The notes: generated from the sequence alone by a model not told the origin. DNA of 32,000 nucleotides from Promethearchaeum syntrophicum (GCF_008000775.2 NZ_CP042905.2:3630001-3662000), one strand, 5' to 3'. Positions 11,932 to 30,100 are shown, counted from the stretch's first letter. Program-made: numbers and translations.

Positions 11932-12693
11932 TTATCGAGCAGAAATTGCCACGCGTTCTAATTCATCCTTGCGTTTAACTGCACGTGAATTAGTATCGTT
12001 GCGACCAGCCAAGATTAATTCATTAGCTAATAATTCATCAATAGTTTTAATATTATTATATGCAAGCCCTACTGTTCCTTGAACAATCAACTTTAAAGCT
12101 AAATCAACTCTGCGTTGTGGTGAGATATCAACGGCCTGTTGATAACTGATACCACCGAGTGATATTCGGGTTGTTTCTTCTTTTGGAGCTGCATTTTCTA
12201 TAGCATTAATTAACACTTGAATCGGATTCTCTCCGGTCTTATTTTCAATAATTGCAAAAGCATTGTAGATGATATTGATTATTTTTTGCTTCTTACCCAT
12301 GTTGAGTGATGAACCGCGTCCTTTGATTCGCTTACCCACTAATCCCGGAGTCATGATCTTGTTAATAAAACGTTCAACAATGGAGATATGTTCCGTCTTC
12401 CAGAACTTTTTATGTTGATGTTTCCCACCTGAATGCGGAATAATAACGGGGGTTAAATTAATGTAACTTTGCAAGCTTAAATCTTTCACTTCAGTACCTT
12501 CAAAAGACCAGCGATTAAATAACAAAATCTCTTGTCCTGTTTTCTTTTTTGGTGCAGGTTCACTTTCATCAGCAGGTTGAGGTTCTACAGTCGGTTCTTC
12601 CGGAGAAGGTTTACTTTCTTCCACTTTCTCTTCGGATTTCTCTTCTTTTGGTTCTTCCGGCTTTGCCTCATCTGTTTTCTTCTTTCGTGCCAT
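11932..12693 (-). CDS. rps7: 30S ribosomal protein uS7 (S7p/S5e) with a ~54-aa acidic/Pro-rich N-terminal extension
   Basis: The conserved core starts at ILLFNRWSFEGTEVKDLSLQSYINL and ends in SRAVKRKDELERVAISAR, as in the archaeal S7/eukaryotic S5 C-terminus. An AGGTGA SD at 12700..12705 lies 6 nt upstream of the ATG. Confidence 0.9.
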   Translation of the reverse strand: MARKKKTDEAKPEEPKEEKSEEKVEESKPSPEEPTVEPQPADESEPAPKKKTGQEILLFNRWSFEGTEVKDLSLQSYINLTPVIIPHSGGKHQHKKFWKTEHISIVERFINKIMTPGLVGKRIKGRGSSLNMGKKQKIINIIYNAFAIIENKTGENPIQVLINAIENAAPKEETTRISLGGISYQQAVDISPQRRVDLALKLIVQGTVGLAYNNIKTIDELLANELILAGRNDTNSRAVKRKDELERVAISAR

Positions 12694-12713: not shown

Positions 12714-13157
12714 TTAACGAACTGCCCTCTCCTTCTTTCCAGAGATTAAAGCATCTAAACTTACACCGTTCACTTTAATTACTTTCCATCGAATACCTGG
12801 TAAATCTCCAACAGCACCTCCCATAGCTCCACCGATTCCAACTATTGACACACTGTCGTGTTCTTCAACGAATGTTAGTGCGGAATCTCCTGGTAGAAAT
12901 GCGGACACTTGTTTACCATTTTTTCTTAATTGAACTCTTACACATTTTCTGATTGCAGAGTTAGGTTGTTTTGATTCGATACCGATTTTCTCAAGTACAA
13001 TTCCTTCAGCCATTGGAGCGGCTTCTAGTGGATCGGTTTTTCTTTTAATCTTCAAAACTCTTCGCTTGTATTTAACATCTTTCCATTGAAAGTGTTTTCG
13101 CTTCTTCGCTAGAGCACGTGCTGCGTATTCGCCTCTAGGGGACTTTGATCTTGCCAT
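12714..13157 (-). CDS. rps12: 30S ribosomal protein uS12 (S12p/S23e)
   Basis: It carries the signature [29 protein letters not shown]. Length (147 aa) and termini are archaeal/eukaryotic S23-like. Its ATG overlaps the rpl30e stop (TAATG at 13157). Confidence 0.92.
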
Positions 13158-13522
13158 TATTTTATCACCTTTAATATGCTGGAGTTTCCTTCAGAAAGAA
13201 TTCCAACAGTAGATACCCAAAAAGGTTTTGCGCAAACAGCTCCAAGATCCCAGCTGGAGTTTTTTGAAGTAAAGATAGGTACGGGTGTTTCTAAACAATT
13301 ATTAAATAGTTTAATTTGATCTACTACCTGTTTGGGGGCATTATTTGCTAAGATTAACAATTTTAAATCTCCCATGGATAGTTGTTTTAGTACGGATTTT
13401 GTTCCTAGTAATACCTTCCCAGTTTTCACTGCAACATTAATCTCTTTGTTCTCATCGAACGAGAGCTTTGCACTGGTGCGCTTTCTTTTCTTGAGTTTTT
13501 GTTGACCTCGTTTATAGGACAT
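13157..13522 (-). CDS. rpl30e: 50S ribosomal protein eL30 (L30e) with a ~20-aa basic N-terminal extension
   Basis: [40 protein letters not shown] matches the eL30 core. Compare eukaryotic SGKYVLGYKQTLK...KLVILANNCP as I recall it. Confidence 0.85.
13165..13170 (-). promoter_or_regulatory. Shine-Dalgarno site (AGGTGA) for rps12
   Basis: The minus strand reads AGGTGA, then 7 nt, then ATG (13157). The site lies inside the 3' end of rpl30e. Confidence 0.6.
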
Positions 13523-13668: not shown

Positions 13669-14325
13669 TTGTTTTTACATAAAATGATTGATAATTCCGT
13701 TTCAAACTTCGATTTAATTTACCCAAAAGAATCTAAATTGAATAATAATCCTGAAAAAATGTTTATATTCTCAGTTCTGACATATTTTATTGTAATAGGA
13801 TTATTTTTAATTCTATCTGCTTCTGGAGTTGTTGAATTCATACCGAATTACGAAAGTTCCAGAATAATTATTTTGGTTTTTGCAATATCTTGGAATTCTG
13901 CAATTCTGATTATAATCGTTGGTCTTCTGATTAATTCGAATAAGAACATAAAGATTAATTCCGAGAATTTTAATCAGTACACTCAAGAATATCAATCTCA
14001 ACGAATTGAAATGGAACAGATTACTAGATCACATGATTATCTATCTCCACAATTTATCGAAACCAAAAAAAAATTAATCCGAGCTTTTTATATTATGTCT
14101 TTTTTTCTTTCTTTTGTGTTTTTACTTCTCTTGGCTATTGGCATATTATTAATTTTATATTCGGTTGGTATTTTTGATTTCGGTTTAGAAAATCCTTCTT
14201 TTAATATAATCCGTAGTATATTTGCTGGGATTTGGAACATAAGTTTATTTTTTGCATTCAATAAAATTATTAAATCTTTTACAAGGTTACAGAAAAAGAC
14301 AACTAAAAAATTCAGCTTTATGTAA
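13669..14325 (+). CDS. Small 4-TM membrane protein with an internal 2-TM duplication, function unknown
   Basis: The 218-aa product has two halves, each with a TM hairpin and similar motifs. RIIILVFAISWNSAILII in the first half corresponds to IIRSIFAGIWNISLFFAF in the second. Confidence 0.5.
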   Translation: MFLHKMIDNSVSNFDLIYPKESKLNNNPEKMFIFSVLTYFIVIGLFLILSASGVVEFIPNYESSRIIILVFAISWNSAILIIIVGLLINSNKNIKINSENFNQYTQEYQSQRIEMEQITRSHDYLSPQFIETKKKLIRAFYIMSFFLSFVFLLLLAIGILLILYSVGIFDFGLENPSFNIIRSIFAGIWNISLFFAFNKIIKSFTRLQKKTTKKFSFM

Positions 14326-14504
14326 AATTTTTTTTGGAAAAATTATATCATTGCAGAAACCCGATCTATTATTTGGATAGGAACCACTGAAATTTTGGGA
14401 GGTATTGGTAGGAAATACTTATCTCTCAGTTTTTTCTAAAAGATCAAAATATAACCGTTTGAATAACGATAATTCTCGTTCTAATTCTTTAATTGTTTGT
14501 TTTA

Positions 14505-14710
14505 AATCCCCTTCATTGTTAAAACCGAATTCTGCAGTATAACAGAATATGTTAGTGGAAATGGCTAAATGAGTATTTTTTTCATCTTTCATGTATCCTA
14601 AAGAAACTTGTAATCCAGAGAAACAGATATACCCGATTTCTCCATCCGATAATTTACTACCCACTGAAGCATCAGCATGCAATTCTTTTCTTATACTTAG
14701 TGTGGTTAAA
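14505..14710 (-). pseudogene. Relic fragment of an AMP-dependent acyl-CoA synthetase (paralogue of 22368..24083)
   Basis: There is nucleotide-level similarity to ~22746..22946. For example, gagaaacagatatacccgatttctccatccgataatt aligns with gagaaacagatatgcccgatttctccgcctgataatt. At protein level, SDGEIGYICFSGLQVSLGYMKDEKNTHLAISTNIFCYTAEFG aligns with SGGEIGHICFSGSQVFLGYLNDEEKTRRTISTDGFCYTGDLG. Similarity continues upstream of the 87-aa ORF (14419..14682) across in-frame stops. Everything else of the ~570-aa enzyme is missing. Confidence 0.8.
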
Positions 14711-14855
14711 GTAGATATAAAAATGCATTTAAAAAAAGAGGTTAATCATTAAAATAATTCTTTTCTATCATTTCAACAAATAGGTAAAATACAATAACGT
14801 TTTATTTTGTAATGTTTTATGTTATTATATTTAAAAAAAGGAAGAATGGTAGATT

Positions 14856-17165
14856 TTGATCATCGACATTTATGATAAAAAAACACAGAAAATAATGCTT
14901 TTAGTATGGGTTATTTCTGTCGTTGGTTCAGGCGTTATTTACTCAATAGTAAAGCCTTTAAGTCGGACTGATGTGGATTATATAGCAATAGAGGGTAATT
15001 TTCAATTAAATGCATTCTTTTCAGATCAATCAATGGATGGTGAATCTTGGGATACTGCTTATGTTTTTAAAAACTTCAAGTTTGATATCCCGGATGATAA
15101 TTATGGTTTAATTCTAAATAATACGGATAAGTTTATTATTATTAAGGATTGTGAATTTAAATGTAAGAGATACAGTGACTCGTATGGAATATATATATTC
15201 AATAGTGAAAATATAAAAATTGACAGCATTAATTTAAAATATTGCGATATTGGAACAAATATAATAAATTCTTCTAATATTGAAGTTTCCAATACAGATT
15301 TTGGAACCAATTCTCGATACGGTACAATCTTGGAAAATAGTACGAATATCAACCTTAATAAAAATACATATCTGGGACGATCTACATATGACATTAGTAT
15401 TAGGTCTTCAAACAATTGTTCTTTAATACAGAACAAAATGATATACAGTGGATTATCTATATCTCTTCAAGATAATCCTTCTTCTCAATTAATGATTGAT
15501 TCTTCTAATACAATAAATAATCAACCAATCTATTATTATGAAAACATATCTCATTTAAACATAAACTTCAATCAACAAATAGGTCAATTACTTCTTAACA
15601 ATTGTTCTGAAAGTACCTTTAGCAATGCATATATCACGAGCACTAAATCAAATGTGATCATTACTAATTCAAAATTAAATCACTTTAATAACATCTCTTC
15701 TACTGAATCAACTGGTTATGGTATTAATATGCATAATTCACCCAATAACACGTTTTCATCATGTAATATATCTGAAAACAATGTAGGGTTTCAAATATCT
15801 TATTCTAACAATGCAACGATAATTGAAAATGAATTATCAAATAATTCTGAAGGAATTTATCATGAATATTCAAACAATTTAATTTTGAAAGAAAATTTAA
15901 TTTTTAATGAGATATCATCTGAGGTTGTCGTTGGTTTAAATCTAGATCACAGCAATAACAATACCATTGATAGTAATAGATTTTATTCTCATTATGAATA
16001 TGAGGGTATAGGAGGTAAATTGTATTATTCAGAATATAATAGTTTTATCAATAATTCGTTTTATGGGGAAACCGCAATTCATAATGTGTATTATTCACCC
16101 TATAATACCTATGTAAATAATAAATTTATTAACTGCTCCCTTAGTAAATCAATACTACTGGCAGATGAGTTCGATTCATCCAATATCCTTAACGGAAAAG
16201 AATTTTCTCTTAACAGAGACAAAGATGAATTTCAAGTTGAAGATCTCACTGATATTTCTCTTCTGATGTTGGATAATTGCTCCAATTTTGATGTCTCCAA
16301 TTTAAACTTTTCAAATATCGAATATTGTCCTATTATTATAAATGATTGTGAGAATTTTACAATTTCCAATTTAAACATCGAAACAAAGGGATATGGAATA
16401 GATATTTATCAGGGCAATATTGGAATCATTTCTGATTGCACCGTTTATGCAACTAGTTATGCTATTTATTTCTATTTGTGCAATAATCTGACAATTTATG
16501 AAAATGAAATTAACTATTCGAAAAATGGGATTTATATTCAAAGCAGTGATGACATCACCGTTTCTAATAATATTATTAGTAGCATACGAACAAATTCTAC
16601 GTCTTCTTTCAGTGATGGTGTTGAAGGAACGCATTCTGATCGAATAAAAATAACCAATAATATTATTGATTGTGATGGTCAAGGAATTTATTTGTATCAA
16701 TGTAATATCTCCAGAATTAACGAAAATCAAATAATAATGTCTAATGTAGGTATCACACTTTCTTCTTTTGATGATGATGATGATTATTCTATCCTTGGAA
16801 ATAATATCACATACATTAGTAGTTGTATTTCCATTATCATTGATGGAGTTCAAATAACAAATAATACTTTAAATGAAACGAATACATGCAATTACCACGG
16901 AATTAATGATGATCCAAATCTACCAGAGAATGACTATATTGATAATTTCGGCTTGAATATTGCTATTCTCTTACTACTAATGGCATTCTCTATTACAGTA
17001 ATAGGGTTAATTTTTCTTAAAATAAAAAAATATGAAAATAAGGAACTAATTAGTCCAACGGAATTTAGGTCTCAGATTGACCCAACGGAATTAGATGGAT
17101 TTAAGACAACAAAGGACCAAAATGAAGCAACGGAACATAATGAAACAAAGGAGCTGAAAGAATAA
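14856..17165 (+). CDS. Surface-anchored right-handed parallel beta-helix (PbH1/NosD/CASH-like) repeat glycoprotein
   Basis: The 769-aa product has an N-terminal signal-anchor (LLVWVISVVGSGVIYSIV). It contains many imperfect ~22-aa repeats of the type N-x-x-I-x-x-N / SNN-x-I-x-x-N (e.g. NNATIIENELSNNSEGIY, NNTIDSNRF, ITVSNNII). I count more than 20 N-x-S/T sequons by eye. There is a C-terminal TM helix (IAILLLLMAFSITVIGLIFL) plus a charged tail. The listed start is TTG; the in-frame ATG at 14895 is an alternative. Confidence 0.65.
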   Translation: MIIDIYDKKTQKIMLLVWVISVVGSGVIYSIVKPLSRTDVDYIAIEGNFQLNAFFSDQSMDGESWDTAYVFKNFKFDIPDDNYGLILNNTDKFIIIKDCEFKCKRYSDSYGIYIFNSENIKIDSINLKYCDIGTNIINSSNIEVSNTDFGTNSRYGTILENSTNINLNKNTYLGRSTYDISIRSSNNCSLIQNKMIYSGLSISLQDNPSSQLMIDSSNTINNQPIYYYENISHLNINFNQQIGQLLLNNCSESTFSNAYITSTKSNVIITNSKLNHFNNISSTESTGYGINMHNSPNNTFSSCNISENNVGFQISYSNNATIIENELSNNSEGIYHEYSNNLILKENLIFNEISSEVVVGLNLDHSNNNTIDSNRFYSHYEYEGIGGKLYYSEYNSFINNSFYGETAIHNVYYSPYNTYVNNKFINCSLSKSILLADEFDSSNILNGKEFSLNRDKDEFQVEDLTDISLLMLDNCSNFDVSNLNFSNIEYCPIIINDCENFTISNLNIETKGYGIDIYQGNIGIISDCTVYATSYAIYFYLCNNLTIYENEINYSKNGIYIQSSDDITVSNNIISSIRTNSTSSFSDGVEGTHSDRIKITNNIIDCDGQGIYLYQCNISRINENQIIMSNVGITLSSFDDDDDYSILGNNITYISSCISIIIDGVQITNNTLNETNTCNYHGINDDPNLPENDYIDNFGLNIAILLLLMAFSITVIGLIFLKIKKYENKELISPTEFRSQIDPTELDGFKTTKDQNEATEHNETKELKE

Positions 17166-17166
17166 A

Positions 17167-19308
17167 ATGTCAAATAATGGAAATTTAACTAAAAATTCAG
17201 AATTGCACCATGGGAAAGGGTCTATGGATCCTGATAAAGACCCAGATAATGACTTGAATTTTGAGTTTAGATATAAAAATGACAAATTTTTGACTAAAAA
17301 ACTTATTAATCGTATAGAAACCCTCTCGTTTGATATTCCTAAAGATGAAAAAATTACTGCCATGTTCTGTGACCTTCAATGGGATGATTCAACACCATTT
17401 TTTGTGATTTATCTAATACCATTAATTTTTTCTATGTCGATGATGATCCCAGGATTTTTGATTGATGGAATGTCAATAATATCGCTTTTTATTTTACCAT
17501 TAGGTTTATTATTATCATATATTATTATAATTCTTATTACAAAAACGAGACCTTTCAAGATTTTGCTTTTTACAGAGAAATCTATCAATTCAATTCATTT
17601 ATTTAGAAGTGGGTCGTTTCATAAATATATCCCCTATGACAGAATCTCATTTCTTGCTATTGATAAAAATACCATATCGATAGAAGATAAAAATAAAAAG
17701 GCTTACATCAAATTTTCCATGAATTATAATAAAAATACGTTTCTAAAAACAGTAAGAGAGTTGATATATAATCACTTGGGAGAAAATTCTCTAGTAGAAT
17801 ATGAAAATGATATAATTAAGACGCGAGTTGAAGATTTAAAAGAAAAAATTGAAACCTCTAAATCAGGAAAATTTGCGGAAAAAAATAGAAAAAAAAGGTT
17901 TAAAGAAATTGAAGGACTAAGCGTCCCAATAAAAATAGGATTGCACAATTATAATTCTAATGAAAATAGTGTTAAGTTAATTAAGAAGAAAATTAGATCA
18001 TCCAAAACGACAATAATCGTCTCAATACTTATTGTAATTCCAATTATTGTCCTCATCACAATCTTTTTCTCTTCATCCTTAACAGTTATGATAATGACAT
18101 TTATAATAGGTCCGTTGATATTAGGTGTTTTTATTATTATTTCAATTCAAGAATATCATAGACTAACGAATTTTACAAATTCAGATAAATCTACAATACG
18201 GATATTGGAAGATGGCTTGGAGATAATTAATAACGACAATAAAGATCTTGGTGGCGTGATTAAAGTGCCGTTTAAGACCGATATGATTATTAAACCATAT
18301 GGTTATATAAATCCCAGCTACTCGAAATATAGTATTAATTATAATACTATTGATATTTTAAGATGGCTTCATCCACAATACAAAATTAAGATTGGAAAAA
18401 TAGAAAATATTCGGGATTTCTACAATAACCTCTACATAGCTTATTTTAAATGGTATAAATCCACCCAAGGTGACAAGATCCTTTCAACGGATGAAATTTT
18501 TAACAAATTTATACATACTGATGATTTCAACAAGAAATTGTATAATACTATGAAACAATCAATTCAAAACTTCCTATGTGATGTAAAACGTTCCACTTAT
18601 CGTTTTAATAGGATTGAATCTATCATGAAAACTGTCAATCTGACGGATATTGACGAAATAAAAAAACCATTAAAAAAACTAGAAGATCTTCCTGAAATAA
18701 TTGAGATTCCAGAAGGAGTGATAAATCCTGATTGTGGCTCTGAATCTGAAGGGGATAAAATCAGAACTAGGGATTTACTTGAGTGGAGTCTTATTTATCC
18801 AAAAGAATTCTACCAATTTTATATAAATGATGATGAAAAGATACTATTTGCCTATCATCCATCAAGTAACATAAAAATCGGAACTTTTGTAAAAAGAATC
18901 GTTGTTTTAGTTACATTATTTTTTATATCAACCTATTCAGTTTATCTATTATCTGATGAGATTGTTTCGGCATTATTTCTAACTACTATTCTTTTTCTCT
19001 GCCCGATTTTTAAAATTTTCACTGGAATAGACACATACAAAAGAGAAATAATCTTTACTGATAAGAAAATTCTTAACTTGAGTTATATGAATCTATATTT
19101 TACAACCTATACCAATATTGAAAAAGCTTCAAAATATCACCAGAAATCGGATAAAATCCTCAAAAAATTAGTCCTCTCTCTAAAAACAAATGCTACAAGT
19201 ACCACAAATATAAATATTCATTCAATTAATATAAAAAAACTTCCCCTAAACTCACCAATCTTTGCGATATTATCTAAAAAAGGTGTTTCATTATATAGGA
19301 GTGATTAA
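17167..19308 (+). CDS. Membrane protein with three [TM-hairpin + soluble PH-like domain] modules (YdbS/YdbT-like topology)
   Basis: The 713-aa product has three pairs of adjacent TM helices at ~aa 77-124, ~282-328 and ~575-620. Module 1 begins with DEKITAMF and module 3 with DEKILFAYHP. In these two modules the hairpin is followed by a motif like ILLFTEKSINSI...IPYDRISFLAI or REIIFTDKKILNL...YTNIEKAS. This resembles the bacterial PH (bPH_2) signature Y-x-hT-x-x-R/K-h. The gene starts 1 nt after the upstream stop. Confidence 0.45.
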   Translation: MSNNGNLTKNSELHHGKGSMDPDKDPDNDLNFEFRYKNDKFLTKKLINRIETLSFDIPKDEKITAMFCDLQWDDSTPFFVIYLIPLIFSMSMMIPGFLIDGMSIISLFILPLGLLLSYIIIILITKTRPFKILLFTEKSINSIHLFRSGSFHKYIPYDRISFLAIDKNTISIEDKNKKAYIKFSMNYNKNTFLKTVRELIYNHLGENSLVEYENDIIKTRVEDLKEKIETSKSGKFAEKNRKKRFKEIEGLSVPIKIGLHNYNSNENSVKLIKKKIRSSKTTIIVSILIVIPIIVLITIFFSSSLTVMIMTFIIGPLILGVFIIISIQEYHRLTNFTNSDKSTIRILEDGLEIINNDNKDLGGVIKVPFKTDMIIKPYGYINPSYSKYSINYNTIDILRWLHPQYKIKIGKIENIRDFYNNLYIAYFKWYKSTQGDKILSTDEIFNKFIHTDDFNKKLYNTMKQSIQNFLCDVKRSTYRFNRIESIMKTVNLTDIDEIKKPLKKLEDLPEIIEIPEGVINPDCGSESEGDKIRTRDLLEWSLIYPKEFYQFYINDDEKILFAYHPSSNIKIGTFVKRIVVLVTLFFISTYSVYLLSDEIVSALFLTTILFLCPIFKIFTGIDTYKREIIFTDKKILNLSYMNLYFTTYTNIEKASKYHQKSDKILKKLVLSLKTNATSTTNINIHSINIKKLPLNSPIFAILSKKGVSLYRSD

Positions 19309-19311
19309 ATA

Positions 19312-20808
19312 ATGGAAAACAACAACAATAATCAACTAGATCCAGATAAAAAGGAGATTGTGGCAAATAATCAAGATTTAAAAATTCAAAATTCAATATT
19401 GCATGAAGATAATGAAGATAATGAGCAAATTTTATTTTTTAAACAAAAGATCGAGAAGATCTTAAAGGAATATGTTACAGTATTTGAAGTAGAAGAAAAA
19501 AACGAGATAGAAGAGAAAGAAAGGATTAAAGACACTGAAGATGATGTGAAAAAAATCCTTCCTGAATTTATTATTTGTATTACTAGAAAAGATTCTATTG
19601 AAGAATTAGAAATGATGAAAGACCATCTTAATCAGTCTGGATTTAAATTCACTTTGAATATAATAAAGAAGGAAGATCCCAAAGACTATGCGAATCGAAA
19701 AGAGATTATTGATTATATAGATTCGGTAGAAAAAAAAAATTACGGAAATAATTCTATTTCAAATGATGATAGAATTCATAAATACACTCTCTTTAGAATG
19801 AAGTTTAATCCTATTAGTCCCCTTTTTTATCAGAAAATGAAGAAGAAATCACGTAATAACATTTTAGATAGAAAAAAAATCAATCTGAATTTAACACGTT
19901 TATCTCTTTCGTTGCTTGGCTTAGCCCTTTTTATTGTTATTCAAGTAAATATTTTAACAGATCACTCGGATTTTACATCATCTTTTTTGAATTCCTTTGG
20001 AACTTCAGATGAGGAAACTAAAAAAATAAATATTTTGTATTTAGTTTTAGGATTTGTATCCATCATATTGGTTCGTGAAATTACTTACTTAATAACTTCC
20101 AGGATTCGAGATGTTAAATATGAAACACCTTATTTTGCTAGTTTAGATAATTTATCTGTCAAAAAATTAAATCCTAACAATATGTTTGATTTAGCCGCTT
20201 CGCGTATTCTTTCAGGATTTCTATGCTCTCTGTTATTATTAATAATGGGTTTGGTATTATCAGAGCAAATTCCAACAAGTCTTTTAATCTCTAATAAAAC
20301 GGGAGATCATATAAACAGATATAATCTATTGACTCAATTATTGAAAAATCTCTTTTTTTCAGATCAAAATAATTTCATTGAGATATTATATGGCGATTCT
20401 ACTTATCTATTACCTAAATATACCATTCTAATGCACCCTCTTGCTTACGCAGGACACTTGGGGCTTCTATTGACTCTCTTCAGTATTTTTCCAATCCAAT
20501 ACACTGATGGCGGAAAAATGTATTATGCTGTATTTAGAAATAAATATGGTCATTGGATCGGATTAGCATTAGTTGCAGTACTTATTGCAACACTGATAGT
20601 TTTTTCTGAGTATGTGTTTTTAATTATCGCTATTTTTCTAATAACTGGAATTAAAATTTATGATTCTAAATATCAAATAGAAGATTTAAAATTCAATTTA
20701 TACCCAATATCAAAAGGAAGAAAAAAATTTCTTATTCTATTTGTGATTTTAATAGTATTGATTTTTCCAATTTCAACATTAGTCAACTTTTTTGGATATT
20801 TGTACTAA
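19312..20808 (+). CDS. Site-2-protease (peptidase M50, EGY-like) homologue lacking the HExxH zinc site, with an acidic N-terminal cytoplasmic domain
   Basis: The membrane core is collinear with the M50 consensus. VREITYLITSRIRDVKYETPYF aligns with xHExGHxxxARxxGVKxxxPYF. NMFDLAASRILSGFLCSLLLLIMGL aligns with xLFDIAxAGPLAGFxxSLxxLxxGL. HPLAYAGHLGLLLTLFSIFPIQYTDGGK aligns with HPLAFAGWxGLLVTALNLLPxGxLDGGH. The H-E-x-x-H is replaced by R255-E-I-T-Y259 (20074..20088). The Asp of LDG is kept (D399, 20506..20508). An AGGAGTGA SD lies upstream. Confidence 0.6.
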   Translation: MENNNNNQLDPDKKEIVANNQDLKIQNSILHEDNEDNEQILFFKQKIEKILKEYVTVFEVEEKNEIEEKERIKDTEDDVKKILPEFIICITRKDSIEELEMMKDHLNQSGFKFTLNIIKKEDPKDYANRKEIIDYIDSVEKKNYGNNSISNDDRIHKYTLFRMKFNPISPLFYQKMKKKSRNNILDRKKINLNLTRLSLSLLGLALFIVIQVNILTDHSDFTSSFLNSFGTSDEETKKINILYLVLGFVSIILVREITYLITSRIRDVKYETPYFASLDNLSVKKLNPNNMFDLAASRILSGFLCSLLLLIMGLVLSEQIPTSLLISNKTGDHINRYNLLTQLLKNLFFSDQNNFIEILYGDSTYLLPKYTILMHPLAYAGHLGLLLTLFSIFPIQYTDGGKMYYAVFRNKYGHWIGLALVAVLIATLIVFSEYVFLIIAIFLITGIKIYDSKYQIEDLKFNLYPISKGRKKFLILFVILIVLIFPISTLVNFFGYLY

Positions 20809-22367: not shown

Positions 22368-24083
22368 TTAATTCACATCCCATTTACCATTAGATCTAAG
22401 GGTTTCGCTAATTTTTAAACCACGTTTCCGTAATTCGACATAATCAACCTTTTTCGTCCGATTTAAAGGCATTTCACCAGGTTCAATAATTTCAAAATGA
22501 AGTGGACGTTTATATGAGGCAATTTCGGGTAAGATTTGTTTTATTTCTTCAACGTTTAATTCAGTTTTTGGGTTTTTTGCAACAAAGGCAATTATACCTT
22601 CACTAAAAATTTTGTGTGGGGCACCGACAACTCCAACCATCATTATTTTTTCTTTGAATTTATTTTGAATGAAATCTTCGATTTCTGCAGGAAAGACTTG
22701 ATATCCTTTTGGTTTAATTACATTTTTTGCGCGTCCCGAGAGATGTAACCCATTTTCATCATAAGAACCAAGATCTCCGGTATAGCAGAATCCGTCAGTG
22801 GAAATAGTACGTCGAGTTTTTTCTTCATCATTTAAGTATCCTAAAAATACTTGTGAACCTGAGAAACAGATATGCCCGATTTCTCCGCCTGATAATTCCA
22901 AACCAGCGGAACCATCCTCATTCATTTCTTTTCGTATACTGAGAGGGCATAGAGGGGATTTATATCCAATTTTTCCATATACTTCATCAACTGAATTACT
23001 TAACTTACAATACACTGGCACTCCGCTCATTTCAGTAATCCCATACCCTGAACCAAAAATCGGACTAAATAGTTTAAGTTGAGACAGGAATTCTTTTGTT
23101 GCAGTTTGCCCAACTGATAAAGCCCAACGTAAAGAAGAAACATCATATTCCTTATAATTAGGGATTTGCCACATTATTGAATACATTGCGGGAACCATAC
23201 CAAGAATAGATACCTTATATTTCTGGATTGCATCAAGAGATTGAACTGGGTTAAACATATGAAGTAAACATGAGATACCCCCCAAATATAACATAGTCAT
23301 ATGTTGGATAATTGTACCCCCCGCATGCGATGGAGGTAGGTTCACCAGCATGACGTCGCTTTTAGCACCTTTCCAAGCTACTTTAAATCCAATACTTTGA
23401 ATGAGAATTCCTTCGCTGCTTATTAAAGCAGGTTTTGGGTATCCCGTACTCCCAGTGGTAAACAGCATTACAATGGGATCACGTTTGGTAACTTGTTTTT
23501 GGAAATCATCAAGACTTTTAAGATCAAATTCTTGGTGTTGCATGAAATCACCAAACCCAATTGCGTTATCAACTATTAAATCAGGTTCTCTTTGAAATTG
23601 AATAAATATTTCACATGGTCCACCATTTTTTTTACTATATTTTTTAATCAACGCTTCAATATTTGGTCGAAAATCCGCAATTTCTGTTTTACCTACAGTA
23701 AAATATGCTTTTGGGGATATAATTGAGAAACATCGATCAAGCTCGTTAATTTTAAGTCGTAAATCTAAAGGAGTAATTATTGCTCCAATTCTGGCACATG
23801 CTTGCATTAAGTAAGCATGTTCTTTTAGGAATGGTAATGATGTTGCAATTACATCACCTTTTTTGACTCCTTTTGATATCAATTTTGCAGCAATAATTTT
23901 AGACATTTCGGAAAATTCTTTCCACGAAACTTTTTTCTCTGTATTATATTCAATTATCGCTGTCTTATCCGGCATTTCTTTAGCCCAATGATCTAACCAA
24001 TTAAAGACAAGAGGGTTTTGATCAAGTGCTTTATAGAGTTGTTTACATTGCTCATCTTGTTCAGAATTTAGAATAATATTCAC
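22368..24083 (-). CDS. AMP-dependent synthetase/ligase (acyl-CoA synthetase, ANL superfamily)
   Basis: The ANL core motifs appear in order: LFTTGSTGYPKPA (A3, T-S/G-G-T-T-G-x-P-K), GYGITE (A5), YTGDLG (A7), KPKGYQVFPAEIE (A8) and the C-terminal PLNRTKKVD Lys (A10). The start is GTG at 24083, overlapping an AAAGGTG motif. Confidence 0.85.
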   Translation of the reverse strand: MNIILNSEQDEQCKQLYKALDQNPLVFNWLDHWAKEMPDKTAIIEYNTEKKVSWKEFSEMSKIIAAKLISKGVKKGDVIATSLPFLKEHAYLMQACARIGAIITPLDLRLKINELDRCFSIISPKAYFTVGKTEIADFRPNIEALIKKYSKKNGGPCEIFIQFQREPDLIVDNAIGFGDFMQHQEFDLKSLDDFQKQVTKRDPIVMLFTTGSTGYPKPALISSEGILIQSIGFKVAWKGAKSDVMLVNLPPSHAGGTIIQHMTMLYLGGISCLLHMFNPVQSLDAIQKYKVSILGMVPAMYSIMWQIPNYKEYDVSSLRWALSVGQTATKEFLSQLKLFSPIFGSGYGITEMSGVPVYCKLSNSVDEVYGKIGYKSPLCPLSIRKEMNEDGSAGLELSGGEIGHICFSGSQVFLGYLNDEEKTRRTISTDGFCYTGDLGSYDENGLHLSGRAKNVIKPKGYQVFPAEIEDFIQNKFKEKIMMVGVVGAPHKIFSEGIIAFVAKNPKTELNVEEIKQILPEIASYKRPLHFEIIEPGEMPLNRTKKVDYVELRKRGLKISETLRSNGKWDVN

Positions 24084-24296: not shown

Positions 24297-25697
24297 ATGG
24301 AAACTGATAGTAATCACGAGAAAATGCTAAATAATCAAGATAAGATGAAATTACAGAAGGAATTTGCGGATTATAATTTCTTTTTTCGATTATCACATTT
24401 CATACTAAAATACCGGTTATATCGCGGTTTTGATGGTCTACCATTTCTTGGATTACGTATGATCGCCATAGTTTTAGGGAAAATAAATGCAAAGAAGGTT
24501 TATAAGAAACTTCACACTATTTGGCAAATATTATATCCCGATGCGTTTTTAAAGAAAATTAATACAAATAAATGGGCAGATTGTTTTATTACGTTTAATA
24601 TTGAATTATTTTTTATTATTAGCTTTATTTTACCCCTTCATTCGTATAAGAACATTGAAACTTATGCCCCGCTTCAAGGAATAGAGCATTTAGAGAATGC
24701 TTTAAAACGGGGAAAGGGTGCTTTAATAACAACAACTCACTTAGGTCAAAGTGTAAACCCAATTAGCACTTTACTCCATCATAAAATATATATCAATGAT
24801 AAAGAAGAGAAAATTTTTGTGGTTATTCTTACATCACGTTCTAAAGAATTTGTGTTCAGAGAAATTTCGAAAAAATGGGACAATATTGACGTTGTTATCT
24901 CGGGAAAATTTGATACTTTACAAGATATTATCAAAAATCATTTAGAGCAAAATCATTGTGTTTTATTCATGCAAGATTTTTACCATAAAAGTCAATTACG
25001 TGTCCCGTTTATATATAGGAGTAAAAGATATAATTTTTTAGTCCCATGTCCACAAATGGTATCATCATTTCATTTCAATCATGGTTCTCCTGTTTTACCT
25101 ATGCTTTCATTCCCAACGGATGATATTCGAAAGACCAAGTTAATAATATTAGAAGAAATGGATCTTATGAAATTAGATCCCAATGAAGAAGAATCCCTAA
25201 TAAAGGATGAACTTTTAAAATTCCAAAGTGGGAAATTAACCAAAAAGGCCAAATATGGTTTATTATCTTTAAAAATAAATGAATTTTTAAATCCATTAAT
25301 TTTAAAATTTCCATTTTACTGGGAAGAATTATATTCCTTTAAGAAAAAGAGTAGTTTTCGAATTAATTTTAAGGAGGTTAATTCATATTATAAGTTTTTA
25401 GAGTTAACTATTGAACAATTAAAGAAATTTATTGAAAATTCTTACGAACCGGGTCGTGACGACCAAAAAATAATAACAGTTCTAGAAGATATAAAGAAGG
25501 AAATGAAAACTTTAATTAGAGAAAAAGAAGAAGATTTTCATATACATAATAAATTTATTGAAATCGGGAACCTTAACACATTTCAAGCGATAAAAAAAGT
25601 CGTTTCAATTGCATTAGCTTATCAAACTATATTTATTAAAGAAAATTATTCAAATATTGAGAATTTATTGAAAAAACTAATATTATACTCAAAATGA
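24297..25697 (+). CDS. LpxL/HtrB/PatA-like (lysophospholipid acyltransferase superfamily) protein with a ~150-aa helical C-terminal extension
   Basis: The layout resembles the lipid A lauroyl-acyltransferase family. There is an N-terminal membrane-proximal region ending in ...WQILYPD. This is followed by QGIEHLENALKRGKGALITTTHLGQ (compare G-x-E-x-L...GkGvIl-x-x-H-x-G-N-W-E). Next comes NHCVLFMQDF...RVPF, and then GSPVLPMLSF. The acidic residue expected 5 positions after the His is Val here. An AGGAG SD lies 8 nt upstream of the ATG. Confidence 0.45.
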   Translation: METDSNHEKMLNNQDKMKLQKEFADYNFFFRLSHFILKYRLYRGFDGLPFLGLRMIAIVLGKINAKKVYKKLHTIWQILYPDAFLKKINTNKWADCFITFNIELFFIISFILPLHSYKNIETYAPLQGIEHLENALKRGKGALITTTHLGQSVNPISTLLHHKIYINDKEEKIFVVILTSRSKEFVFREISKKWDNIDVVISGKFDTLQDIIKNHLEQNHCVLFMQDFYHKSQLRVPFIYRSKRYNFLVPCPQMVSSFHFNHGSPVLPMLSFPTDDIRKTKLIILEEMDLMKLDPNEEESLIKDELLKFQSGKLTKKAKYGLLSLKINEFLNPLILKFPFYWEELYSFKKKSSFRINFKEVNSYYKFLELTIEQLKKFIENSYEPGRDDQKIITVLEDIKKEMKTLIREKEEDFHIHNKFIEIGNLNTFQAIKKVVSIALAYQTIFIKENYSNIENLLKKLILYSK

Positions 25698-25731: not shown

Positions 25732-27096
<1,365 letters not shown>

Positions 27097-27102
27097 TCAC
27101 CT
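27097..27102 (-). promoter_or_regulatory. Shine-Dalgarno site (AGGTGA) for rpoA2, overlapping the rpoA1 stop codon
   Basis: The minus strand reads AAATAGGTGAATCATAATG. The TAG stop of rpoA1 is embedded in AGGTGA, with a 6-nt spacer to the ATG at 27090. Confidence 0.6.
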
Positions 27103-30100
27103 ATTTCTTTTTTTTTTCACTTTCCCAATCTTTAAATATTTTTGTTTTCCGACCTCGAACAATGGCTTTTTTGTCTGTTTCTTGATTGTATAGTTCATAT
27201 TTTTCTTCAATGGACAAACTTTCAAAAGATTTCTTTGAGAGATCTACCTTTTTCTCTTTTGGTGGTTCTTCTTTCTTCTTAGCAGTTGTTTTCTTCTTAG
27301 CCGTTTTCTTGGTTGTCTTCTTTTTAGCAACCGTTTTCTTCTTAGTAGTTTTCTTGGTTGTCTTCTTCTTAACGGCTTTCTCTACTGCTTTCTTTTCAAT
27401 AACTTTTTCTTTTATTATAGGAGTTTCTGCAATTATTTCTTCTTTTTTAGGTTTAACTTTGCTTTTTGATTTAATGTTAACCGATTTTGAGGTACCTGCA
27501 TCTTCTATTACATACTCTACTGGAAATTCAGGATGAGTACGACCATTTAGGGATTCAGCAATTACTTTCTCTTCTTTCAGTAATTCTCTGTATGCTTTCG
27601 TTTTTAATACAATCTGCTCAAAGCTTATGATGTCTCCACCATCCGAATGTGCAGGATCAACTCCGTCATCACCATATTTGAATTGTATAATGTTTTTTTC
27701 TGATGTTCTTACAGTTAAATCATTTTCTACAACCATATCTTGTAATGCATTCACTAATCGTCTTTGCATATATCCTGAAGAGCTGGTTCGGACTGCGGTA
27801 TCTACCAATCCTTCTCGTCCACCCATAGCATGGAAAAAGAATTCTGTAGGAGTCAATCCAGTTCGATAAGAATTTAAAACAAAACCTCTTGCTGGAGGAG
27901 ATAAATCTTTAATTTTAAAATGTGGTAATGTTCTATCAATAAAACCTCTATGAATCCGATCTTGACGAACAGATTGTTGCCCTACACAAGCAGCCATCTG
28001 AGCAAGGTTGAGAGGATTTCCTCGTGCTCCAGATTTCGTCATAATAACAGAATGAGCCCTATCTCCAAGATATTCGGCGGCAATATTTCCAGCATCACCC
28101 CGAGCTTGGTTTAAGAGCCCCATTAATTGTAATTCTAAGGTTTCATATAAAGTTCTTCCAGGAGCACAAGGTAATACTTCTTGATCATCATCGTGATATG
28201 CTTTTATTAACCTATTTGATTCATTATATGCGTCATAAATCACACCATGCACATTTTTTCTTGCAACGCCGATATCAACTTCATCAATACCCATCGTTAA
28301 ACCATGAATTGTTATTACCCAAACAAGCATGTAAACTGCATCATCTAAGAATTCTCTTCCTCGATTAGGGCCATAATCTCGAATTACCCGTTGTAGGATA
28401 CTTGAAATTCTGCCATCACCAAAGGAATTTTTATCTAAAACTCCCGATAACATCTTCCCATTTTTAATGAATACAAAACCATCACCCTTTTCACCTTCTT
28501 CTTCACGGTAGAATTTGGATCTAATACTCATGTTTAAATCATGGGGTAAAATGCAGCTGAAAATAGCTTTTCCCGTATACATCCTGTCTTCTTTCGGTGC
28601 TTCTGGATTAACGGGTATTATTTGGTCAATTTTGAATGAGGGGTTTCGTTTAAATACATTCCCCCAATAAAGTAAAGAAAATGTGTCTTTTCTAGAAAAA
28701 GTATTTGGAACTCCAGGAGATCGTTCATCTCTGGTGAACATATATCCAACAGAAATAAAATCTTGGATACCACCAATGATTGGTCCTCCAAATCTAGGAG
28801 ATATAATATGTTCTTGGACTTTTAATAGATATTGGGCTTCGGTACGTGCCTCCTCGCTTTGAGGAACGTGAAGATTCATTTCATCACCATCGAAATCAGC
28901 GTTATATGGAGGGCAAACTACTAAAGATAATCGAAATGTCTGACCTTGCATAACTTTTACTTCATGAGCCATAATGGACATCCTATGAAGAGAAGGTTGC
29001 CGATTAAATAAGACAAGGTCCCCATCTCGCAAGTGTCTTTCGATTATAAATCCTGGTTTGATAGTAGAAGCAACAATTTCTCTGGCTTTTACAAATCTTA
29101 AGTCAATTCTTCTTCCATCTTCACGAATTATATAATTTGCACCAGGATGATTTTTAGGACCATTTAAAACAACTTGTTTCATTTCTTCGATATTAAATTC
29201 CGTAACATAGCTTGGAACGGTTAAAATTTTGGCAATTTTTTCTGGAACACCTACTTGATTAATGGATATATGAGGATTAGGGGAAATAACAGTTCGAGCC
29301 GAGAAATCAACACGTTTTCCTGAAAGATTGCTTCTAAATCTTCCCTCTTTTCCTTTTAATCTTTGAGTTAAAGTTCTTAGTGCACGACCAGAGCGATGTC
29401 TTGCAGGGGGAATCCCACTGACTTCATTATTAAAATACGTAGTTATGTGATATTGTAGTAATTCCCATAAATCCTCTACAATTAATTGTGGAGCCCCAGC
29501 ATCGATATTTTCTCGCAATCTTTGATTAATTCTGATAACATCAACTAATTTATGCGTTAAATCATCTTCTGATCTGATTCCACTATCTAATGTAATAGAA
29601 GGTCTAACACAAACTGGAGGAATGGGTAATACAGTTAAAATCATCCATTCAGGTCGCGCCGTTGATGGGTTAATCCCAACTAATTCACAATCGTCAACAT
29701 TCATATTTTCAAGTCGTTCTCTGAGGAAATTTGGAGTTAAGCGTTCCCCATCTTCATATAAAGTAGTTGGTTTTTCGATCGTAATTTTTTTCTTTGGTTC
29801 GCCACAATAAGGACATTCTTTTGCTTTTCTTGCAGTTTTAAATATTTCTGAATAAATAGTCTCATCATTTTCATCAAAAATATCCCTATAATTCTTCTGT
29901 TTAGAACGATACTGTTGAATTTGATCTTCCGTGATTAATAAACGTGAACAATTTGAACATAATGCTCTTAGAATTTTTAATAGAAGTTTTGCATGACCCA
30001 CATGTATTACTGGTCTTGCTAACTCAATATGACCAAAATGACCATGGCATGCTCCCACTCGATTACCACATGTGGCGCATTTTTGACCAGGTTCTATGGT

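What the first reader, a model, noticed from the sequence alone, without database searches (positions are those of the whole stretch)
14856..20808. Tightly coupled three-gene envelope operon with no nameable function: beta-helix surface glycoprotein, triple TM-hairpin/PH-like protein, and dead site-2-protease homologue
Three plus-strand ORFs are separated by 1 nt (17165/17167) and 3 nt (19308/19312). The second and third are preceded by GGAG and AGGAGTGA, so they very likely form one transcription and translation unit.

Gene 1 is a signal-anchored parallel beta-helix repeat protein that also has a C-terminal TM anchor. It carries more than 20 N-x-S/T sequons. Gene 2 has three repeats of a TM hairpin followed by a soluble PH-like domain. 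Gene 3 is an M50/S2P-type membrane core that has lost its zinc-binding histidines, fused to an acidic cytoplasmic domain.

No product has an obvious intact active site, and I cannot match the combination to any described system. The block is conspicuously more Asn/Ile/Lys-rich than the housekeeping genes around it. It sits inside the disrupted rpo/ribosomal-protein string, next to a decayed gene fragment, and so looks accessory.

Working hypothesis (inference only): this is a surface sensing or surface-protein handling/immunity module. The pseudo-protease and the PH-like protein would form the membrane part, and the beta-helix protein the exposed part.
Basis: partly seen in the sequence, partly recalled or inferred. 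Interest (0 to 1): 0.7.

Follow-up and report, generated by a model that had tools for sequence, protein, structure and literature searches.

The report
Asgard dead-protease membrane module with surface protein
Three tightly packed genes of the Asgard archaeon Promethearchaeum syntrophicum encode a membrane-anchored beta-helix surface protein, a membrane protein with three helical hairpins, and a site-2-protease relative that has lost its zinc-binding histidines. The last two are a gene pair conserved across Asgard archaea and not found described in the paper library searched, so the block is a real module of unknown function.

Summary
The window is from Promethearchaeum syntrophicum MK-D1, and gene 3 is DSAG12_03889. 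Three intact plus-strand ORFs lie 1 and 3 nt apart, with GGAG-type motifs before genes 2 and 3.

- **Gene 1** is a parallel beta-helix protein (Pfam E about 1e-31) with TM segments at both ends.
- **Gene 2** has three TM hairpins. The PH-like fold is only weakly hinted at.
- **Gene 3** belongs to the M50/S2P family. HExxH is replaced by R-E-I-T-Y, and the Asn of NxxP and the His of LDGGH are also lost. The catalytic Glu and the Asp ligand are kept.

New findings:
- A gene-2-like protein sits directly upstream of the M50 gene in every close relative with enough upstream sequence. This includes lineages with an intact HExxH, one of them a Hodarchaeota MAG.
- The histidine-less proteins form one long-branched clade (bootstrap 1.0), sister to the active, gene-2-linked clade.
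- The beta-helix gene joins the pair only in that clade: Promethearchaeum and one contig at about 30% identity with different flanks.

Best reading: an S2P-plus-adaptor module whose protease became a pseudoprotease that binds, but does not cut, the beta-helix protein. The mechanism is inferred. I found no support for a defence role. It is a new variant of a known kind, of moderate interest.

The parts
14825..14835 (+). A/T-rich TATA-like stretch (TTATATTTAAA) 21-31 nt upstream of the gene 1 start; a candidate archaeal promoter
   Evidence: Read directly from the sequence. No archaeal promoter tool was available, so this is inference only.
14856..17165 (+). Gene 1: 769-aa parallel beta-helix protein. 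Short basic N-terminus, N-terminal TM segment (aa 13-31), about 670-aa beta-helix ectodomain, C-terminal TM anchor (aa 702-720) and a 49-aa acidic tail
   Evidence: ORF. Pfam NosD and Beta_helix E about 2e-31. TM segments and 25 sequons. Full-length orthologue with the same architecture in L004, 30% identity. dN/dS 0.40 against L002.
14892..14948 (+). Gene 1 N-terminal TM segment: signal anchor or signal peptide, N-in orientation by the positive-inside rule
   Evidence: Hydropathy. KKTQK precedes it, and this is conserved in L002.
16959..17015 (+). Gene 1 C-terminal TM anchor
   Evidence: Hydropathy 2.89. Conserved in L002 and L004.
17150..17153 (+). GGAG, 13 nt before the gene 2 ATG, inside the 3' end of gene 1
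   Evidence: Identical in L002.
17167..19308 (+). Gene 2: 713-aa protein with three TM hairpins, each followed by a soluble beta-rich domain ending in a helix. All soluble parts are predicted cytoplasmic
   Evidence: ORF. Hairpins. Homologues directly upstream of M50 genes in L002-L007, L089-L091 and L174/175. Modules 1 and 3 are related, hhalign E 4e-5. No Pfam family reaches its cut-off.
17392..17550 (+). Gene 2 TM hairpin 1 (aa 76-128)
17998..18156 (+). Gene 2 TM hairpin 2 (aa 278-330)
18871..19029 (+). Gene 2 TM hairpin 3 (aa 569-621)
19297..19304 (+). AGGAGTGA Shine-Dalgarno-like motif before gene 3, inside the 3' end of gene 2
   Evidence: GGAG/GAGGTG/GGAGG-type motifs lie at the same place in L002, L004, L005, L089 and L090.
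19312..20808 (+). Gene 3 (DSAG12_03889): 498-aa M50/S2P-family membrane protein. About 190-aa acidic cytoplasmic N-domain plus a six-TM core, with a degenerate catalytic centre
   Evidence: 100% match to the named protein. Pfam M50 23.6 bits. Family profile against 3B4R, 7e-10. 250 homologues at E<=1e-3. dN/dS 0.36.
20074..20088 (+). R255-E-I-T-Y259, in the position of the HExxH zinc and catalytic motif
   Evidence: Alignments A2. REITY in four Promethearchaeum sequences, REISH in P0008, RELCR in P0009, HExGH in the 19 others aligned.
20491..20514 (+). P394-IQYT-D399-GG, in the position of NxxPxxxLDGGH. Pro and Asp are kept; Asn is replaced by Ser and the trailing His by Lys

Best explanation
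**What it is.** The block is an Asgard-specific two-gene membrane module plus one added gene.
- The module is a triple-TM-hairpin adaptor (gene 2) with an EGY-like site-2 protease that carries a cytoplasmic N-domain (gene 3).
- In the Promethearchaeum lineage the protease has become a pseudoprotease, and a co-transcribed bitopic beta-helix surface protein (gene 1) has been added.

**Shown**
- All three are intact genes under purifying selection.
- The gene 2-gene 3 adjacency is conserved across divergent Asgard lineages, most of them with an intact HExxH.
- The histidine-less proteins form one long-branched clade.
- Gene 1 is found with the pair only in that clade.

**Inferred mechanism**
- Gene 3 keeps the S2P membrane fold and its cytoplasm-facing cleft, but can no longer hold zinc with the canonical His-His-Asp triad.
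- It therefore binds rather than cuts a transmembrane helix of gene 1. The N-in signal anchor has the orientation S2Ps prefer.
- Gene 2's large cytoplasmic domains gate or stabilise this complex.
- The result would be a dedicated holder, anchor or quality-control device for a surface protein, comparable in logic to other intramembrane pseudoproteases such as EGY3 and iRhoms.
For: - **ORFs and coupling:**
- **Beta-helix:**
- **S2P membership of the family:** (3B4R, 7e-10, both motifs aligned).
- **Loss of catalytic-centre residues:** His1, usually His2, the NxxP Asn and the LDGGH His are lost in all six members of the subclade, while Glu256 and Asp399 stay invariant.
- **Phylogeny:** the subclade is monophyletic (bootstrap 1.0) on a long branch. 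It is sister to the active gene-2-linked clade, and the two together have bootstrap 0.83.
- **Gene 2 next to the M50 gene:** homologues lie directly upstream in L002/3, L004, L005/6, L007, L089, L090 (Hodarchaeota), L091 and L174/175.
- **Trio conservation:** the trio, with a full-length gene 1 orthologue, is conserved in L004 at about 30% identity with different flanks.
- **Selection:** dN/dS is 0.27-0.40 for the three genes.
- **Topology:** by the positive-inside rule the motif positions sit at the cytoplasmic ends of TM2 and TM4, and gene 1's N-terminal TM is N-in (inference).
- **Precedent:** a histidine-less S2P homologue with a non-proteolytic, protein-stabilising role is known, EGY3 (PMC10978774).
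- **Context:** Lokiarchaea have a single membrane without an ordered S-layer, studded with unidentified surface proteins (PMC9834061).
Against: - No direct evidence links gene 1 physically to genes 2 and 3.
- The gene 1 association rests on two independent lineages (2 of 2 histidine-less loci with upstream sequence, against 0 of 3 active loci). That is too few for statistics.
- The catalytic Glu and the Asp ligand are invariant, which could mean residual or altered catalysis.
- The fold of gene 2 is unresolved (pLDDT 33 and 38).
- No transcript or protein data were found.
- dN/dS is several-fold higher than in neighbouring ribosomal genes, so constraint is moderate.
Confidence: 0.4

Rival explanations
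1. Gene 3 is still a working intramembrane protease with a non-canonical metal site (Glu256, Asp399 and nearby His375/His382). Gene 1 is its substrate in a regulated-intramembrane-proteolysis cascade that releases gene 1's acidic cytoplasmic tail or clears its signal anchor. Gene 2 is the regulator.
For: - Glu256, Asp399-Gly-Gly, Pro394 and His375-Pro are invariant or nearly so, even in the histidine-less clade.
- The genes are under purifying selection.
- Close relatives with an intact HExxH have the same partner gene.
- P0008 keeps the second His, as REISH.
Against: - The first zinc histidine is Arg in all six members.
- The second is Tyr or Arg in five of six.
- The NxxP Asn and the LDGGH His are also replaced.
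- The clade sits on a long branch, typical of released catalytic constraint.
- Plant EGY3, which lacks HExxH, is classified as non-proteolytic because it lacks that motif.
Confidence: 0.15
2. Only genes 2 and 3 are functionally linked. Gene 1 is an independent surface adhesin or polysaccharide-binding beta-helix protein that merely shares a promoter or position in these genomes.
For: - Gene 1 is absent next to the pair in L007, L090 and L174.
- Beta-helix surface proteins are common; another, non-orthologous one lies near the pair in L005.
- Gene 1 evolves fastest: 72% identity against 82-83% for the other two, and dN/dS 0.40.
Against: - The order gene 1-2-3 and the 1-nt gap or 4-nt overlap are kept at about 30% identity in a different genomic context.
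- Gene 1 appears together with the loss of the catalytic histidines.
Confidence: 0.3
3. The block is an immunity, defence or peptide-export module. This would be analogous to bacterial YdbS/YdbT PH-domain membrane proteins, which have been implicated in bacteriocin transport and resistance.
For: - Gene 2 has the same gross layout as YdbT: repeated TM hairpin plus a small beta-rich domain (the YdbT layout is from my own knowledge).
- YdbS/T-type proteins are linked to leaderless bacteriocin transport (PMC8657885, seen).
- The block has low GC and lies in a rearranged region.
Against: - PADLOC gave no match for any of the three proteins.
- Pfam bPH_2 does not match gene 2 or its relatives, even at E<=10.
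- No toxin, ABC transporter or mobile-element gene lies nearby.
- The pair is conserved vertically across Asgard lineages next to housekeeping genes.
Confidence: 0.05

Closest known systems
Site-2 protease / Peptidase M50 family (for example M. jannaschii S2P MJ0392, PDB 3B4R; plant and cyanobacterial EGY-type S2Ps)
   Same: - The six-TM core is homologous: the family profile matches 3B4R at 7e-10 across both motif regions.
- The Glu of HExxH and the Pro and Asp-Gly of NxxPxxxxDG are conserved.
- The bacterial homologues in the alignment lack PDZ and CBS domains, and I take them to be EGY-like from memory of that subfamily. This was not tested against EGY sequences.
   Different: - Both zinc histidines are replaced (R...Y), as are the NxxP Asn and the LDGGH His.
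- There is a cytoplasmic acidic N-domain of about 190 aa with no Pfam family.
- There is an obligate upstream partner gene.
EGY3, the Arabidopsis chloroplast S2P pseudoprotease (and, by logic, iRhom/Derlin rhomboid pseudoproteases)
   Same: An S2P homologue that lacks HExxH and is thought to act by stabilising or binding other membrane proteins rather than cutting them (PMC10978774; PMC3149277, listed).
   Different: - The loss is independent. The archaeal clade nests among Asgard sequences with an intact HExxH.
- Other independent H->R losses occur elsewhere in the family.
- No partner gene or surface client is described for EGY3 in the papers read.
YdbS/YdbT-type bacterial PH-domain (bPH_2) membrane proteins
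   Same: Repeated units of a TM hairpin followed by a small beta-rich domain with a C-terminal helix; YdbT has three such units (my own knowledge). Weak, non-significant PH-fold signals are seen here.
   Different: - There is no bPH_2 HMM match.
- The middle module is much larger (about 240 aa) and unrelated in sequence to modules 1 and 3.
- It is always paired with an M50 gene.
NosD / CASH-type right-handed parallel beta-helix proteins
   Same: PbH1 repeats match Pfam NosD and Beta_helix strongly.
   Different: - It scores 64.8 bits against the 300-bit cut-off of the NosD subfamily model.
- There are no nosZ/F/Y/L neighbours.
- It is membrane-anchored at both ends.
- No solved structure is detectable by sequence.

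Membership tests
Peptidase M50 / site-2 protease | Sequence homology of the polytopic core to M50 proteins | tested here: met
   - 250 homologues at E<=1e-3.
- Family profile against PDB 3B4R, 7e-10.
- The single sequence scores 23.6 bits against the Pfam cut-off of 27.2. 80%-identity relatives carry precomputed PF02163 hits.
Peptidase M50 / site-2 protease | HExxH zinc-binding and catalytic motif in a TM helix | tested here: not met
   The motif is R255-E-I-T-Y259. The first His is Arg in all six clade members, and the Glu is retained.
Peptidase M50 / site-2 protease | NxxPxxxxDG motif supplying the third zinc ligand (Asp) | tested here: inconclusive
   Pro394, Asp399, Gly400 and Gly401 are present and invariant. 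The Asn is replaced by Ser or Thr in the clade.
Peptidase M50 / site-2 protease | Zinc-dependent intramembrane proteolysis | not testable with these tools
   Needs biochemistry.
S2P pseudoprotease (EGY3-like, as a functional class) | S2P homologue lacking the HExxH histidines but kept under selection | tested here: met
   Motif loss. dN/dS 0.36, with an intact ORF at 80% and about 30% identity.
S2P pseudoprotease (EGY3-like, as a functional class) | Common descent with plant EGY3 | not tested
   No EGY3 sequence was included. The tree places the clade among Asgard sequences with an intact motif, which suggests an independent loss.
Bacterial PH domain proteins (bPH_2, YdbS/YdbT) | Match to the Pfam bPH_2 model (or other bPH models) | tested here: not met
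   bPH_2 gave no hit at E<=10 for whole proteins, single modules or consensus sequences. One relative hits bPH_3 at E 0.019, below cut-off.
Bacterial PH domain proteins (bPH_2, YdbS/YdbT) | TM hairpin preceding each soluble domain, repeated | tested here: met
   Three hairpins in gene 2 and in all full-length homologues.
Bacterial PH domain proteins (bPH_2, YdbS/YdbT) | PH superfold: seven-stranded beta sandwich capped by a C-terminal helix | tested here: inconclusive
   - The AlphaFold models have low confidence (pLDDT 33 and 38).
- Their secondary-structure order is strand, hairpin, 5-6 strands, helix.
- Most of the top Foldseek PDB hits are PH, PTB or FERM-C domains, but all have E>=0.16.
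Right-handed parallel beta-helix (PbH1) proteins | Pfam Beta_helix/NosD repeats above the gathering score | tested here: met
   109 and 109.5 bits against cut-offs of 25.9 and 23.6, in 4-5 stretches. TIGR03804 repeat, 42 bits against 19.45.
NosD (nitrous oxide reductase maturation) | Subfamily model score and nos gene neighbours | tested here: not met
   TIGR04247 scores 64.8 bits against a 300-bit cut-off. No nos genes lie in the window.
Known anti-phage defence systems | Match to any PADLOC model | tested here: not met
   No hits for the three proteins or two neighbours at E<=0.01.

The most novel reading that the evidence does not exclude
The gene 2-S2P pair is an Asgard-specific intramembrane-proteolysis system that the paper searches here did not find described. 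In the Promethearchaeum lineage its protease was converted into a non-catalytic receptor that holds a large beta-helix glycoprotein at the cell surface. That would make it an archaeal counterpart of eukaryotic pseudoprotease client handling (iRhom/Derlin logic). It would also put a name on one of the unidentified surface proteins on the S-layer-less envelope that mediates Asgard cell-cell contacts.
Probability: 0.2. Interest if true: 0.7.

Novelty: new variant of a known kind. Interest (0 to 1): 0.5.

Why it matters
- **Testability.** Promethearchaeum syntrophicum is one of very few cultured Asgard archaea. Its envelope, a single membrane without an ordered S-layer, is thought to matter for the syntrophic contacts invoked in models of eukaryogenesis. 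Yet its surface proteins and their handling machinery are unidentified (PMC9834061).
- **What this block offers.** It gives a concrete, conserved candidate: a membrane-anchored beta-helix protein coupled to a site-2-protease-derived pseudoenzyme and a partner protein that accompanies this S2P subfamily across Asgard lineages.
- **For protease biology.** It shows a prokaryotic S2P-to-pseudoprotease transition with the active sister clade still available for comparison. It also identifies a constant partner gene that could be the missing regulator or adaptor for PDZ-less, CBS-less S2Ps.
- **If the link to gene 1 is fortuitous,** the finding reduces to an uncharacterised conserved gene pair.

Tried and rejected
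- **Structure of gene 2.** Two AlphaFold2 runs, with 3-sequence and 6-sequence alignments, gave pLDDT 33 and 38.
- **Word-indexed homology searches.** For genes 2 and 3, and for a gene 2 profile, these found only the >=80%-identity relatives.
- **PDB sequence searches.** Genes 1 and 2 gave nothing.
- **Pfam on gene 2.** Scans of modules and consensus sequences gave no family. The only signals were scattered sub-threshold hits to PH-related families: bPH_3, PH_trem, Myosin_TH1 and, as I recall its clan, EbsA.
- **Pfam on the gene 3 N-domain.** Nothing.
- **Metagenome scans.** The gene 2 pattern found no relatives. The M50 pattern returned only distant M50 genes at about 22-32% identity, which look bacterial and have no gene 2 homologue nearby.
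- **Genome scan.** It found one Promethearchaeum MAG plus two Heimdall-type loci whose active M50 has no gene 2 neighbour.
- **Other checks.** PADLOC gave no hits. Rfam gave no RNA family in the window. Literature searches found no paper on these locus tags and none combining Asgard with site-2 protease.
- **Rejected: NosD function.** The score is far below the subfamily cut-off and there are no nos genes.
- **Rejected: gene decay.** The ORFs are intact across about 70% divergence and dN/dS is below 1.
- **Rejected: recent foreign insert.** The position between L30e and rpoA'' is shared with an 80%-identity relative, and the GC is like other non-ribosomal parts of the window.

Full report
**Identity of the window and check of the observation**

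Gene 3 is 100% identical to DSAG12_03889 of Promethearchaeum syntrophicum, the cultured Asgard archaeon MK-D1. Gene 2 is DSAG12_03888.

The gaps are 1 and 3 nt. GGAG lies at 17150-17153 and AGGAGTGA at 19297-19304.

The TTG start of gene 1 corresponds to an in-frame ATG in an 80%-identity relative, and the residues that follow are conserved.

GC in the block is 0.26-0.29, against 0.35-0.39 in the neighbouring ribosomal-protein genes. Other stretches of the window are equally low, so the block is not a compositional outlier.

**The three proteins**

*Gene 1*
- It matches Pfam NosD and Beta_helix at E about 2e-31 in four to five stretches.
- It is far below the cut-off of the true NosD subfamily model: 64.8 against 300 bits.
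- It has an N-terminal TM segment (aa 13-31) preceded by lysines, and a C-terminal TM anchor (aa 702-720) followed by a 49-aa acidic tail.
- Its 25 sequons compare with 19.2 +/- 3.9 in composition-preserving shuffles. The count is real but mostly a consequence of 14% Asn.

*Gene 2*
- It has three TM hairpins (about aa 76-128, 278-330 and 569-621) separated by soluble regions. The basic flanks place these regions in the cytoplasm (the topology is inferred from the positive-inside rule).
- No Pfam or NCBIfam family reaches its cut-off.

*Gene 3*
- It has a roughly 190-aa acidic N-domain, with no Pfam family, and a six-TM core.
- Pfam Peptidase_M50 scores 23.6 bits, just under the 27.2 cut-off.
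- An exhaustive HMMER search found 250 homologues at E<=1e-3.
- A profile of 25 of them matches the solved M. jannaschii S2P (3B4R) at 7e-10 over both catalytic motifs.

**State of the catalytic centre**

In the alignment of gene 3 with 24 homologues, the HExGH motif takes these forms:

| Sequences | Motif |
|---|---|
| Four Promethearchaeum sequences | R-E-I-T-Y |
| P0008 | R-E-I-S-H |
| P0009 | R-E-L-C-R |
| The other 19 | HExGH |

- In the same six sequences the Asn of the (L)NxxP motif is Ser or Thr, and the His of LDGGH is Lys.
- Glu256, Pro394 and Asp399-Gly-Gly stay invariant.
- A neighbour-joining tree of the core puts the six on one long branch (bootstrap 1.0). That branch is sister to a clade of sequences with an intact motif, and the two clades together have bootstrap 0.83.
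- Loss of the histidines has happened independently elsewhere in this M50 subfamily, again often as H->R: P0064, P0071, P0126 and P0132.
- The 'dead protease' description is therefore well supported at sequence level. Loss of activity itself is inferred.

**Neighbourhood survey**

This is the most informative result.

*Loci in the histidine-less clade*

| Locus | What is there |
|---|---|
| L002/L003, Promethearchaeum relatives at about 80% identity | The same trio, with 1- and 3-nt gaps, between L30e-S12 and rpoA''. |
| L001 | Partial, same arrangement. |
| L004, a JGI metagenome contig with gene 3 at 34% identity | Beta-helix (744 aa), a gene 2 homologue (805 aa) and a histidine-less M50 (475 aa). 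There is a 4-nt overlap and a 3-nt gap, and the flanking genes are unrelated. Its beta-helix protein is a full-length orthologue of gene 1 with the same two TM segments. |
| L005/L006 | The gene 2-gene 3 pair, but cut off upstream. A beta-helix gene 2.6 kb downstream is not an orthologue of gene 1. |

*Nearest relatives with an intact HExxH*

| Locus | What lies directly upstream of the M50 gene |
|---|---|
| L007 | A 635-aa protein; BLASTP 7e-12 to gene 2. |
| L090 | A 662-aa protein in a Hodarchaeota MAG. |
| L174 | A 624-aa protein; hmmsearch 7e-29 against a gene 2 profile. |
| L089, L091, L175 | Short contigs ending in recognisable gene 2 C-termini. |

- All full-length members have three TM hairpins.
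- None of the three active loci with enough upstream sequence has a beta-helix gene there.

*More distant M50 genes*
- Two Heimdall-type loci (L028, L050) and an independently histidine-less one (L172) lack a gene 2 neighbour.
- One contig (L008) has 463 bp upstream with no detectable gene 2.
- The 160 loci from the M50-pattern scans, nearly all distant M50 genes that look bacterial, also show no gene 2 homologue.

*What this means*
- Gene 2 plus the M50 gene is a conserved pair, apparently specific to Asgard archaea, that predates the loss of the histidines.
- Gene 1 joins it only in the histidine-less clade. This is 2 of 2 testable loci against 0 of 3, which is suggestive but a small sample.
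- Purine-rich GGAG-type motifs lie 6-14 nt before the M50 start in most of these loci.

**Selection**

| Gene | dN/dS, MK-D1 against L002 |
|---|---|
| Gene 1 | 0.40 |
| Gene 2 | 0.27 |
| Gene 3 | 0.36 |
| S12 | 0.02 |
| L30e | 0.085 |

These values come (Nei-Gojobori, approximate in such AT-rich DNA). The genes are constrained but evolve several-fold faster than the housekeeping neighbours.

**Is gene 2 PH-like?**

- Modules 1 and 3 share a pattern: (D/E)EKI strand, TM hairpin, xIxFT(D/E)Kxφ, then (P)Yxxφ. hhalign gives E 4e-5 with the hairpin included and 2e-4 for the soluble parts alone. Module 2 is not detectably related.
- Pfam bPH_2 never matches. The only hits are sub-threshold ones to PH-related families: bPH_3 (0.019), Myosin_TH1 (0.0097), PH_trem (0.14) and EbsA (2.1). 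I recall EbsA as a PH-clan family. Consensus sequences gave nothing.
- Two AlphaFold2 runs were low-confidence, with pLDDT 33 and 38. Their secondary-structure order is one strand, the hairpin, five to six strands, then a long helix.
- Foldseek against the PDB returned mostly PH, PTB and FERM-C domains among its top 50, including the bacterial PH proteins 3B77 and 3DCX. Every E-value was >=0.16.
- I treat the PH-like fold as plausible but unproven.

**Mechanism**

*Shown*
- A conserved pair of adaptor and S2P.
- A derived histidine-less clade.
- The trio conserved in two lineages at about 30% identity.

*Inferred*
- By the positive-inside rule, the degenerate HExxH and the PxxxxDG lie at the cytoplasmic ends of TM2 and TM4. 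From my recollection of the MjS2P structure, S2P active sites sit near that face.
- Gene 1's N-terminal TM is N-in, the orientation S2Ps accept. This is established knowledge for RseP-type enzymes and was not tested here.
- I therefore favour a pseudoprotease that binds rather than cleaves a TM helix of the beta-helix protein, with gene 2's cytoplasmic domains as gate or scaffold.
- The precedent is EGY3. It is an S2P homologue without HExxH, classified as a pseudoprotease and reported to stabilise other membrane proteins (PMC10978774).
- Lokiarchaea have a single membrane without an ordered S-layer but with numerous unidentified surface proteins (PMC9834061). This gives gene 1 a plausible place.

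*Rivals*
- Residual, non-canonical catalysis, because Glu and Asp are invariant.
- A fortuitous operon partnership of gene 1.
- A defence or export role, for which nothing speaks: there are no PADLOC hits.

**Genomic setting**

The minus-strand order in MK-D1, starting at rpoA' (27101-30214) and ending at S7 (11932-12693), is:
- rpoA', rpoA''
- a 466-aa ORF of unknown family (plus strand)
- acyl-CoA synthetase
- TrpRS
- the trio (plus strand)
- an AMP-ligase fragment
- a 218-aa membrane ORF (plus strand)
- L30e, S12, S7

In the relative L002, the trio lies between L30e and rpoA'' with only a 76-aa ORF in between. The trio's position therefore predates the species split, and MK-D1 gained extra genes on both sides.

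A 208-nt direct repeat (73% identity) links the fragment at 14512-14719 to the intact synthetase gene at 22755-22962. The two copies bracket the trio and TrpRS.

**Verdict**

The block is best filed as a new variant of a known kind: an S2P-family pseudoprotease with a partner gene I could not find described in the paper searches here, and a lineage-specific surface client. Interest is moderate (0.5). The comparative pattern is clear and testable in a cultured Asgard archaeon, but the function and the physical link between the three proteins remain inferred.

Noticed in passing
window 14512-14719 and 22755-22962: A 208-nt direct repeat (73% identity). The 87-aa AMP-ligase fragment (14419-14682, minus strand) is a decayed partial copy of aa 387-446 of the intact acyl-CoA synthetase (22368-24083). 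The two copies bracket the trio plus TrpRS, which points to a past duplication or rearrangement.
   Followed up: partly
L002 8252-10105 versus window 25732-27090: The rpoA'' gene of the 80%-identity Promethearchaeum relative carries an intein with a LAGLIDADG endonuclease domain. The MK-D1 rpoA'' (452 aa) does not.
   Followed up: no
window 11932-12693 (minus strand): The first ~55 aa of this 253-aa ORF, which lies next to S12 and which I read as ribosomal protein S7 (not run against Pfam), are rich in Lys, Glu and Pro.
   Followed up: no
window 13669-14325 and 24297-25697: Two plus-strand ORFs with no family match: a 218-aa polytopic membrane protein that looks internally duplicated, and a 466-aa protein. 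Neither is present at the corresponding place in the relative L002.
   Followed up: no
window 13157-13522 / 12714-13157: L30e abuts S12 directly, sharing one base, with no nusA-like gene between them. From memory, nusA commonly sits between these genes in archaeal rpo-ribosomal clusters.
   Followed up: no
proteins P0064, P0071, P0126, P0132, P0112; L172: Other full-length members of this M50 subfamily have independently lost the HExxH histidines, repeatedly with Arg in place of the first His. P0071 lies next to alanyl-tRNA synthetase, with no gene 2 homologue.
   Followed up: partly
L007 5697-6038: In the locus with an active M50 and a gene 2 homologue, the gene just upstream of the pair is a 113-aa thioredoxin-fold protein with a weak OST3_OST6 hit.
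   Followed up: no
window 14856-20808 versus ribosomal genes: The synonymous distance to L002 is lower in the trio (dS 0.26-0.42) than in S12 and L30e (0.87-1.1). This may be an artefact of extreme AT codon usage, or a sign of different histories.
   Followed up: no
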